A DNA stretch of 64,000 bases from Prorocentrum cordatum (lineage: Eukaryota): NCBI GenBank assembly GCA_963575745.1, contig CAUYUJ010000114.1, forward strand, positions 558,001-622,000, in the 5' to 3' direction. Made by a program: the position numbers and the translations under genes. Below, piece by piece: positions 24,909 through 25,578 of the stretch. Under the pieces are notes generated by a model. That model was not told where the DNA came from. It did no database searches and was given only the letters and a program-made list of their open reading frames with translations. Positions within the stretch are counted from its first letter, which is position 1; every line of letters starts with the position of its first letter.

Positions 24909-25308
24909 GCCTGGCCGACGGGCGGGGCGATTCATCGCCAGCGCCGCCGCCGGGAGGAGCTTGCTTCCGCCGCGGGCGATGGCCGCGGGGATCCGGGCGG
25001 CCTTCCACGCGCGGCCGACGTGCCGTCGGCCCCGGACAGCGGGCGCGCGCATGCTCAACTGCGGAGCGGGTCGCGATTCCGTCGAGCACTGCGCCCCCTG
25101 CCGAGTTTATCATCGCGACCTCAGCGCGCGTCTACTCCGCGCTCACCGGCCAGCTTCGGCAGCGGTGCTCTCTGCATTTCTCGGGTTGCGTGGCGAGGTT
25201 CCCCAGCAGGCCGCCTTGAGATCGCCGGCGCGGCGCGCGCTGCACCGCGCGGCGAACGGCTTACGGCGCGGATCCTTTGGCCCGTCAGATGCGGAGAATG
25301 CCTTCGTT

Positions 25309-25578
25309 GGATTGCAAAAAAAAAAACGAAGGATTGCAAACAAAAAAAAAAAACGAAGGATTGCAAAAAAAAAAAGAAGGATTGCAAAAAAAAAAAGGAT
25401 TCCAAAAAAAAAACGAAGGATTGCAAACAAAAAAAGGATTGCAAAAAAAACGAAGGATTGCAAAAAAAAACGAAGGATTGCAATCCTTTGCAATCCTTCG
25501 TTTTTTTTTTGCAATCCTTTTTTTTTTTTGCAATCCTTCGTTTTTGCAATCCTTCGTTTTTTTTTTGCAATCCTTCGT
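25309..25578. repeat. Inverted array of GGATTGC(A)nCGAA / (T)nGCAATCCTTCG units at the PLE 5' junction
   Basis: 9 units in one orientation and 6 in the other; symmetry axis at 25480/25481 (AAGGATTG|CAATCCTT). Confidence 0.9.

What the first reader, a model, noticed from the sequence alone, without database searches (positions are those of the whole stretch)
25301..25578. Telomerase-like reiterative copying and snap-back at the PLE 5' junction
Seen: the ~20-nt segment at the pLTR start (T tract + TTGCAATCCTTCG; template at 29164-29190) is repeated 6 times forward and 9 times inverted, with variable A/T tract length. The fold-back is exactly at the internal palindrome TTGCAA. The adjacent target ends in AATGCCTTCGTT, nearly identical to the element's AATCCTTCGTT. 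Inference: cycles of realignment and re-extension on a short template, ending in microhomology-related joining. This could be repeat-addition behaviour of a TERT-sister RT, or host Pol-theta templated insertion during break repair.
Basis: partly seen in the sequence, partly recalled or inferred. Interest (0 to 1): 0.78.

Follow-up and report, generated by a model that had tools for sequence, protein, structure and literature searches.

The report
Head-to-head short-repeat array at retrotransposon 5' end
The first 20 or so bases of a young, nuclease-less Penelope-like jumping gene have been copied 15 times, in two opposed blocks, at the end where its DNA copy was finished, which hints that its telomerase-related copying enzyme, or the cell's repair machinery, can re-copy a short template again and again.

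Summary
At 25309-25577 there are 9 inverted and 6 forward copies of a ~20-nt unit: an A/T run of 3-16 plus GCAATCC[TTCG]. The unit is the start of the element's pseudo-LTR and occurs once inside the element, at 29164-29192. The orientation switch lies in the perfect palindrome GGATTGCAATCC (25475-25486).

The element (25557-29468) looks young and intact. It is a Penelope-like retrotransposon without an endonuclease domain.

The two arms are not mirror copies, so a simple snap-back self-copy is not supported. In both arms the minus-sense strand has its 3' end at the centre, and TTGCAA is the only self-complementary part of a unit.

My best reading (0.42): two growing minus-strand 3' ends each received repeated copies of the short template at insertion, then annealed at TTGCAA. 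Which polymerase did this, the element's RT or a host repair enzyme, is unresolved.

Contigs of four public runs hold the same units at summed depths several-fold to over 90-fold above the pseudo-LTR. Such arrays are therefore widespread. A DNA-level minisatellite origin remains a serious rival.

No other full copy, empty site or raw long read could be reached.

The parts
25092..25110 (+). First copy of a 19-nt direct repeat, CGCCCCCTGCCGAGTTTAT. It is either the left target-site duplication or the source of a templated filler.
   Evidence: exact pattern hits only at 25092 and 29467, with 0.02 expected..
25111..25296 (.). GC-rich stretch of unknown origin between the 19-nt repeat and the array. 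It is either original target DNA or extra inserted sequence.
   Evidence: No match to the element, to the downstream flank or elsewhere in the window. No look-alike in earlier notes.
25297..25308 (+). Flank end AATGCCTTCGTT. It is forward-sense and nearly identical to the unit's AATCCTTCGTT.
25309..25483 (-). Inverted arm of 9 units, A(n)[CGAA]GGATTGC. Two of its runs carry the C (AAAC) that matches the G of the internal template.
25475..25486 (.). Perfect palindrome GGATTGCAATCC, where the orientation switches.
25480..25577 (+). Forward arm of 6 units, GCAATCC[TTCG]T(n). The last unit is the start of the 5' pLTR.
25557..25855 (+). 5' pseudo-LTR.
   Evidence: 299 nt, 99.3% identical to 29170-29468; 2 differences, at 25564 and 25853.
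25765..25802 (+). Minimal hammerhead-like motif (CTGACGAG-CCCC-AGCA-GGGG-CGAAAC-GTT). The same motif lies in the 3' pLTR at about 29378-29415.
   Evidence: Hammerhead_3, 18.2 bits, E 0.13, below the gathering score of 48.5. One search shows both copies.
25883..27262 (+). ORF1 (459 aa) with a basic Ser/Arg/Gly-rich tail. No family was found for it.
27259..29109 (+). ORF2 (616 aa), a Penelope-type reverse transcriptase without an endonuclease domain. Its start overlaps the ORF1 stop (ATGA).
29164..29192 (+). Single internal copy of the unit (T13 G TT GCAATCCTTCGTT) between ORF2 and the 3' pLTR. This is the presumed template.
29170..29468 (+). 3' pseudo-LTR. Homology with the 5' copy ends at ...GGTGT (29465), 18 nt before the position that corresponds to the ORF1 ATG.
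29467..29485 (+). Second copy of the 19-nt repeat (CGCCCTCTGCCGAGTTTAT), directly after the element's 3' end.

Best explanation
The array marks the end at which minus-strand DNA synthesis of a Penelope-like element without an endonuclease finished.

The segment copied last is the U tract plus GCAAUCCUUCG(UU) at the start of the pseudo-LTR. It was copied repeatedly. Each time, the A-rich 3' end of the growing minus strand let go and re-paired with one of the two UU dinucleotides 7 or 11-13 nt downstream. The segment was then copied again, which gave units of varying run length.

This happened on two separate 3' ends that grew towards each other. One end belonged to the full-length copy primed at the right flank. 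The other was a short product on the left side of the break. A minus-sense unit can pair with another minus-sense unit only through TTGCAA. The two ends annealed there and were filled in, which sealed the 5' junction head to head.

Shown: the anatomy, the unit's origin inside the element, the independence of the two arms, and the polarity.

Inferred: that the array arose at insertion, and that the element's own RT, a sister of telomerase RT, did the re-copying.
For: 1. The unit is part of the element. One copy lies between ORF2 and the 3' pLTR at 29164-29192, and the last forward unit is continuous with the 5' pLTR.

2. Two inverted units carry the interrupting base of the internal template (AAAC + A run, matching T13 G TT). 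No forward unit has it. The left arm was therefore not copied from the present right arm.

3. The arms are not mirror images.

4. Units end after CC (4 units), after TTC (1 unit) or after TTCG (10 units). The first and last of these are the two TT sites.

5. In both arms the minus-sense strand has its 3' end at the centre, and the switch is in the only self-complementary hexamer of the unit.

6. The same sequence inside the element is not reiterated, so the repetition goes with the end of synthesis and not with the sequence alone.

7. The element lacks an endonuclease. There is no Pfam hit. Only 1 of 22 homologues carries GIY-YIG. No longer fused relatives were found, which is weak evidence. 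It must therefore use ready-made DNA ends, and a break offers two of them.

8. A purified Penelope-like protein extends both strands of its target and starts reverse transcription internally near the pLTR-ORF junction (PMC11167929, main text read). This element's 3' end lies at the same kind of place.

9. Contigs of 4 of 4 runs laid hold the units with many run-length variants. Summed depth over the pLTR bins is about 8-16x (X1), 5-16x (X2), 3.5-10x (X3) and over 90x (X7). The tool warns that summed depth is not copy number.

10. Loose ends in those contigs show variant units (GCAATCCTGGG, GCAATCCAGG) and arrays that adjoin other sequences.
Against: - No other full copy, empty site, transcript 5' end or raw read was seen, so both the timing and the polymerase are inference.
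- T runs of 8-12 without the G cannot be read straight from T13 G TT. They need slippage or a second template.
- The left junction (forward-sense CCTTCGTT next to an inverted core) is not explained by this model.
- The very large excess of units in run X7 fits amplification at the DNA level better than one array per insertion.
- Repeat addition has not been reported for any Penelope-like RT in the papers I saw.
Confidence: 0.42

Rival explanations
1. A host repair polymerase of the theta-mediated end-joining kind made the repeats. While the free 3' end of the cDNA was being joined to the broken chromosome, the polymerase primed, copied a few bases of the nearby end in cis or in trans, fell off and primed again. 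This left direct and inverted copies of the terminal 20 nt.
For: - Copies occur in both orientations and come from a template within 30 nt of the junction.
- A/T runs give easy re-priming.
- The element has no nuclease, so it must enter at breaks.
- At the other junction, 19 nt (29467-29485) repeat a sequence 198 nt upstream of the array with one mismatch. This could be a templated filler of the same repair.
- Every insertion of the family would offer the same A-rich end, so recurrence does not exclude this reading.
Against: - By my recollection of the literature, which no call here checked, templated insertions of this pathway are usually a few to a few tens of bases. This array has 15 cycles and about 270 nt.
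- Whether this organism has such a polymerase was not tested.
- The 19-nt repeat can equally be a target-site duplication.
Confidence: 0.2
2. The array is a minisatellite at the DNA level. A single unit at the 5' end, or a few inherited units, expanded and changed by replication slippage and unequal exchange after insertion. An inversion or hairpin event produced the opposed arm. Alternatively, the element lies beside a pre-existing satellite that itself derives from such elements.
For: - Summed depth of unit contigs exceeds the pLTR several-fold in X1-X3 and by over 90-fold in X7. Many run-length variants are seen (tables 2 and 4).
- A/T runs are slippage-prone.
- Satellites derived from pieces of Penelope-like elements are discussed in the 2026 retrozyme preprint (passages seen).
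Against: - The identical unit inside the element (29164-29192) has stayed single.
- The insertion is young, with pLTRs identical at 297 of 299 positions, which leaves little time.
- A satellite does not explain why the switch lies exactly in the one palindrome, nor why both minus-sense 3' ends face the centre.
- Two scans of metagenome contigs found no such array.
Confidence: 0.25
3. Each unit is a separate, extremely 5'-truncated, A-tailed retro-insert (11 nt plus a poly(A) tail).
For: - Read on the minus strand, units look like CGAAGGATTGC followed by an A run.
Against: - It needs 15 events truncated at the same 2-3 points and in two orientations.
- No duplicated target lies between units.
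- The unit is continuous with the pLTR in the sense orientation.
Confidence: 0.05
4. The array is an assembly or sequencing artefact, for example a fold-back chimera or collapsed homopolymer-rich reads.
For:
- Homopolymer lengths are error-prone.
Against: - The arms are unequal and not mirrored, unlike fold-back chimeras.
- The same units with the same cores occur in contigs of 4 of 4 independent runs.
- Two X2 contigs change strand within unit arrays. This is weak evidence, because likeness was set to 90.
Confidence: 0.05

Closest known systems
Complex tandem/inverted insertions and 'tail' of Penelope-like elements (Craig et al. 2021, PMC8557442, passages seen; Frangieh et al. 2024, PMC11167929, main text read)
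   Same: - A pseudo-LTR made by a partial upstream tandem copy.
- A head-to-head arrangement at the upstream pLTR.
- The 3' end lies at an internal site near the pLTR-ORF junction.
- Both target strands can be extended.
   Different: - The known inverted partner is a 5'-truncated copy that keeps the element's 3' end. Here the inverted arm holds only the 5'-most 20 nt, nine times over.
- The forward side also repeats that piece.
- The described tail is a single 30-40 bp extension, not an array.
Template slippage of the eel LINE UnaL2 on its (UGUAA)n 3' repeat (PMC1636434, passages seen)
   Same: A retrotransposon RT re-copies a short template several times. The authors call this reminiscent of telomerase.
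   Different: UnaL2 slips at the start of reverse transcription, at the element's 3' end, on a 5-nt repeat that already exists in the RNA. Here the repeats lie at the 5' end, the unit is about 20 nt and single in the template, and both orientations occur.
Endonuclease-less Penelope-like elements Athena and Coprina (described in PMC8557442, passages seen)
   Same: - An RT without GIY-YIG.
- An upstream ORF.
- A hammerhead motif near the 3' end.
- A short repeat-like motif between the RT gene and the hammerhead.
- The protein atlas look-alikes are about 600-680 aa proteins, commonest in rotifers (a lead only).
   Different: - Those elements carry reverse-complement telomeric repeats and sit at chromosome ends.
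- This unit is not telomere-like, and the window shows no telomeric array.
- Both flanks here are ordinary sequence.
Telomerase and bacterial DRT10/DRT2 tandem-repeat synthesis (search listing and abstracts only)
   Same: Repeated copying of one short internal RNA template by an RT of the wider telomerase-related group.
   Different: Those enzymes use a dedicated template with defined boundaries and give uniform repeats. Here the repeats vary in length and break point, and no enzyme activity is known.
Templated insertions of polymerase-theta end joining, and twin priming of L1 (both recalled, not checked in any call)
   Same: Direct and inverted copies of sequence next to a junction. Two 3' ends at one break are both used as primers.
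   Different: Templated insertions are much shorter. Twin priming inverts a 3'-ward part of the element, not its 5'-terminal bases.

Membership tests
Penelope-like element (PLE) | Reverse transcriptase of the Penelope type, including the N-terminal conserved region with the DKG motif | tested here: met
   - 22 homologues among 8000 candidates scored. 21 of the 22 carry PF28514, which names DUF8422.
- BLASTP to P0008, an RT + GIY-YIG protein by Pfam: 24% identity over 564 columns, E 3e-31.
- D171 and K172 (the DKG motif) and the D417 D418 pair are invariant in both alignments.
- The name 'DKG motif' is recalled, not taken from a call.
- Pfam itself gives no hit for this ORF.
Penelope-like element (PLE) | Pseudo-LTRs: a partial tandem copy flanking the coding part | tested here: met
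   A 299-nt direct repeat, 25557-25855 and 29170-29468, identical at 297 of 299 positions.
Penelope-like element (PLE) | Hammerhead ribozyme motif in the pLTR | tested here: inconclusive
   The core CUGACGA...GAAAC with a 4-bp helix II is present in both pLTRs. Rfam Hammerhead_3 scores 18.2 bits, E 0.13, below the gathering score of 48.5. There was no hit in the wider scan. Minimal forms without helix III are described for PLEs (PMC4209133, passages).
Canonical EN+ PLE | GIY-YIG endonuclease fused to the RT | tested here: not met
   There is no GIY-YIG hit in ORF1 or ORF2. The ORF ends where P0008 continues into its GIY-YIG domain. No longer relatives were found, which is weak evidence.
Athena/Coprina-type EN- PLE | Telomeric location and short reverse-complement telomeric repeats near the 3' end | tested here: not met
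   No telomere-like array is among the 41 tandem-repeat rows of the window. The unit is T-run + GCAATCCTTCG, not (NNNCCC)n. The clade of the RT was not tested by a tree.
Telomerase-like repeat addition | Tandem copies of one short internal template added to a DNA 3' end | tested here: inconclusive
   The sequence pattern fits: 15 units match 29164-29192. Enzyme activity, template boundary and processivity cannot be tested with these tools.
Snap-back (self-primed) copy | The inverted arm is the mirror image of the forward arm | tested here: not met
   Only the first unit agrees in register. The best match, 41 nt, is reached by 17% and 29% of shuffles.
L1-type twin priming | The inverted segment comes from the 3'-ward part of the element and ends at the target with the element's 3' end | tested here: not met
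   The inverted arm holds only the 5'-terminal unit. No element 3' end lies at 25308.

The most novel reading that the evidence does not exclude
The RT of this nuclease-less Penelope-like element, a sister of telomerase RT, has a true repeat-addition mode.

It uses the U-tract-GCAAUCCUUCG segment at the pLTR start as an internal template. It adds (A(n)CGAAGGATTGC)n to any free DNA 3' end, including ends that never receive an element body. Broken ends capped this way find each other through the TTGCAA palindrome.

This would explain the head-to-head joint, the arm without an element, and the large excess of units over the element in public reads. It would also be a living intermediate between retrotransposition and telomerase-style end healing.
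Probability: 0.18. Interest if true: 0.85.

Novelty: new variant of a known kind. Interest (0 to 1): 0.6.

Why it matters
Penelope-like elements are the closest relatives of telomerase, yet how they finish and join their DNA copies is largely unknown. The first biochemical study dates from 2024 (PMC11167929).

This is a 5' junction built from 15 re-copies of the element's own last 20 nt, in a member that lacks a nuclease. It gives a concrete, short RNA substrate on which to ask whether a Penelope-type RT can realign and re-copy as telomerase does.

If instead a host polymerase made the array, the locus shows how a nuclease-less retroelement is stitched into a chromosome break.

Either way, the array explains why such junctions are hard to assemble and may seed minisatellites.

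Tried and rejected
**Own genome.** None is held, so other copies in the assembly could not be examined.

**Earlier notes.** Nothing was found by place near the finding, nor by sequence for the pLTR, RT, array or left flank.

**Metagenome contigs.**
- The pLTR-start 22-mer gave 0 loci.
- A two-unit pattern gave 97 loci. None was this array on inspection; all were chance or unrelated repeats.

**Viral contigs.**
- The unit pattern and the hammerhead 32-mer each gave 0.
- The RT protein and alignment A1 found no relative.

**Prokaryote genome contigs.**
- The 22-mer gave 0.
- Alignment A2 gave 35 pattern hits, none a relative.

**Public runs.**
- 24 were listed and none held half of the sampled words.
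- All four runs laid are contigs, not raw reads.
- The left flank 24900-25307 has no cover in any of them, which says nothing.
- No contig bridges the centre by the tool's 31-letter rule.
- In X7, cover stops inside the pLTR. This is not evidence of absence.

**Other checks.**
- The first Rfam scan of 24000-31000 gave only sub-threshold microRNA and snoRNA look-alikes caused by the hairpin.
- The protein atlas gave nothing for ORF1.
- The left stretch 25111-25308 does not match the pLTR, the element body or the downstream flank beyond shuffled controls.
- Spliced-leader relics were considered as the origin of the unit. I rejected this by eye against the leader as I recall it, with no call.
- A telomeric origin was rejected.

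Full report
**What is there**

The window was read at 24900-26000 and 28900-29500 and parsed by script. From 25309 to 25483 the top strand carries nine units of the form A-run + [CGAA]GGATTGC. From 25480 to 25577 it carries six units of the form GCAATCC[TTCG] + T-run.

The last forward unit runs without a break into TTCAAGTGAGG..., the start of a 299-nt direct repeat. This repeat spans 25557-25855 and 29170-29468, with 2 differences.

The same unit occurs once more, as T13 G TT GCAATCCTTCGTT, at 29164-29192. That position lies between the end of the RT gene and the downstream repeat.

Run lengths are 3 to 16. Ten units are full (TTCG), one lacks the G, and four stop after CC.

Tandem Repeats Finder reports both blocks. 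The core heptamer is found 18 times in the window, 14 of them in the array. All 11 copies of CCTTCGTT in the window belong to the array, its left junction or 29185, against 2.04 expected.

**The element**

ORF1 (25883-27262) and ORF2 (27259-29109) overlap by ATGA.

ORF2 has no Pfam hit. It does have 22 homologues among the 8000 candidates scored. The five best are 34-40% identical and of like length. 21 of the 22 carry PF28514, and only one (P0008) also carries RVT_1 and GIY-YIG.

ORF2 aligns with P0008 over 564 columns (E 3e-31) and ends before P0008's nuclease domain. The DKG and DD residues are invariant in both alignments.

The best solved structure by sequence is an RNA-directed DNA polymerase at E 0.002. 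The protein atlas lists clusters with DUF8422 and HTH_animal, about 600-680 aa, commonest in rotifers. I treat this as a lead only. No longer fused relative was found, which is weak evidence.

Each repeat holds a minimal hammerhead-like core. Rfam scores it below threshold, at 18.2 bits and E 0.13. Such minimal forms are described for these elements (PMC4209133, passages).

This is therefore a young Penelope-like element without an endonuclease. Only one copy is in the window. Earlier notes of this scan call the genome a dinoflagellate. I did not check that.

**Anatomy of the switch**

The change of orientation lies in GGATTGCAATCC (25475-25486), a perfect palindrome. It can also be read as 13-nt arms around a TCCT loop.

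Beyond the first unit the arms do not mirror each other. In register, unit 2 is full on the left and short on the right, and so on. The best shifted match is 41 nt with at most one mismatch. It is reached by 346 of 2000 shuffles that deal cores and runs separately, and by 571 of 2000 that reorder whole units.

Two left-arm runs hold the interrupting base that the internal template has (T13 G TT). No right-arm run does. The left arm is therefore not a copy of the present right arm, and a plain snap-back with self-copying is not supported.

In both arms the minus-sense strand has its 3' end at the centre. Within a minus-sense unit, the only stretch that can pair with another minus-sense unit is TTGCAA. 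Two minus strands growing towards each other and annealing there would give exactly this joint.

**Junctions with the chromosome**

At the 3' end, homology between the two repeats stops at ...GGTGT (29465). This is 18 nt before the position that corresponds to the ORF1 start. A purified Penelope-like protein also starts reverse transcription at an internal site near that junction, and it extends both target strands (PMC11167929, main text).

Directly after the 3' end lies CGCCCTCTGCCGAGTTTAT. Its only other occurrence is at 25092-25110, with one difference and 0.02 expected by chance. There are two readings:
- It is a 19-bp target duplication, and the 198 nt at 25111-25308 are extra inserted sequence.
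- It is a filler copied from 200 nt upstream during repair.

I could not decide between these without an empty site.

At the left, the flank ends in AATGCCTTCGTT. This is too close to the unit to be chance. It has the forward sense, however, while the adjoining unit is inverted. Neither a simple microhomology join nor priming on the RNA gives this junction. It may be a third, partial, forward unit. It remains unexplained.

**Evidence from other data**

No whole genome is held. Scans of metagenome, viral and prokaryote contigs found no copy.

One search of public runs listed 24, none with half of the sampled words. Contigs of four runs were laid on 24900-26400 at 90% likeness, with these results:
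- In X1, a 689-nt contig matches 25560-26244 with one difference at depth 18.
- Bins 25410-25562 of the array have summed depths of 224-298 (X1), 56-141 (X2), 24-59 (X3) and 4189-8573 (X7).
- The pLTR bins have 18-29 (X1), 9-11 (X2), 6-7 (X3) and 20-44 (X7).
- Many contigs differ in run length (table 4).
- Loose ends show variant units (GCAATCCTGGG, GCAATCCAGG) and units adjoining other sequences.
- Two X2 contigs change strand inside unit arrays.

The tool warns that summed depth is not copy number and that joints at this likeness are weak. With that caution, the units are common and variable in several samples. The array is not a private accident of this locus, nor one fixed string.

The head-to-head joint itself therefore rests on this assembly.

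**Reading**

The reiteration goes with the end of synthesis. The same sequence inside the element was passed once without repetition.

I favour repeated re-priming of the A-rich minus-strand end on the two downstream UU sites of the RNA, on two separate 3' ends, followed by annealing at TTGCAA (0.42). The element's RT is the more economical agent because the pattern recurs across the family and in variant units. This is inference.

The rivals are:
- A host end-joining polymerase (0.20).
- A DNA-level minisatellite history (0.25). The over 90-fold excess in X7 speaks for this one.
- Stacked A-tailed micro-inserts (0.05).
- An artefact (0.05).

**Comparison with what is known**

Head-to-head and tandem partial copies, and a single 30-40 bp tail, are known for these elements (PMC8557442, passages).

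Slippage on a short repeat at the start of reverse transcription is known for the eel LINE UnaL2 (PMC1636434, passages).

Nuclease-less relatives carry short telomere-complementary repeats.

An array of 15 re-copies of the element's own 5'-terminal 20 nt, in two opposed blocks, is not among the features described in the passages I read. It also did not show up in the titles or abstract starts of these searches:
- 'Penelope-like' with 'slippage': 13 papers.
- 'Penelope-like' with 'template jumping', 'reverse transcriptase' and 'tandem': 162 papers, 15 listed.
- 'Penelope-like' with 'dinoflagellate': 5 papers.

I did not read those papers in full. Supplements of PMC8557442 and PMC11167929 were not opened and may show junctions of this kind.

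Noticed in passing
window 25092-25110 and 29467-29485: A 19-nt direct repeat with one mismatch. The second copy starts 2 nt after the element's last shared base, and the first lies 198 nt upstream of the array. It is either a target duplication enclosing extra sequence or a templated filler.
   Followed up: partly
window 24706-24912; also 14424-14632, 44299-44498, 12043-12238, 15323-15495: A repeat of about 200 bp with internal inverted arms (24714-24750 / 24872-24908). It looks like a MITE, has at least five copies in the window at 87-90% identity, and one copy lies just upstream of the insertion.
   Followed up: no
window 27259-27262: The ORF1 stop and the ORF2 start overlap as ATGA. Both reading frames of the element are open throughout, which fits a recently active copy.
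   Followed up: partly
window 25611-25800 (run X7): A 190-nt contig of a run labelled with another organism code is identical to this part of the pLTR, hammerhead-like motif included. The same pLTR sequence therefore occurs outside the sample that best holds the element.
   Followed up: no
window 29185-29235 (and 25572-25622): Directly after the unit, the RNA is predicted to form a small stem (CCUUCG/UGAGGG) and a GC-rich hairpin (GGGGGGGCA...UGCCCCUCCC). For 29150-29260, z = -2.6. It could be a protein-binding or start site next to the repeated template.
   Followed up: partly
window 7785-10371, 31440-32408, 56705-58298: Very long microsatellites: (GTA)n of 2.6 kb, (ACAT)n of about 1 kb and (GT)n-like of 1.6 kb.
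   Followed up: no
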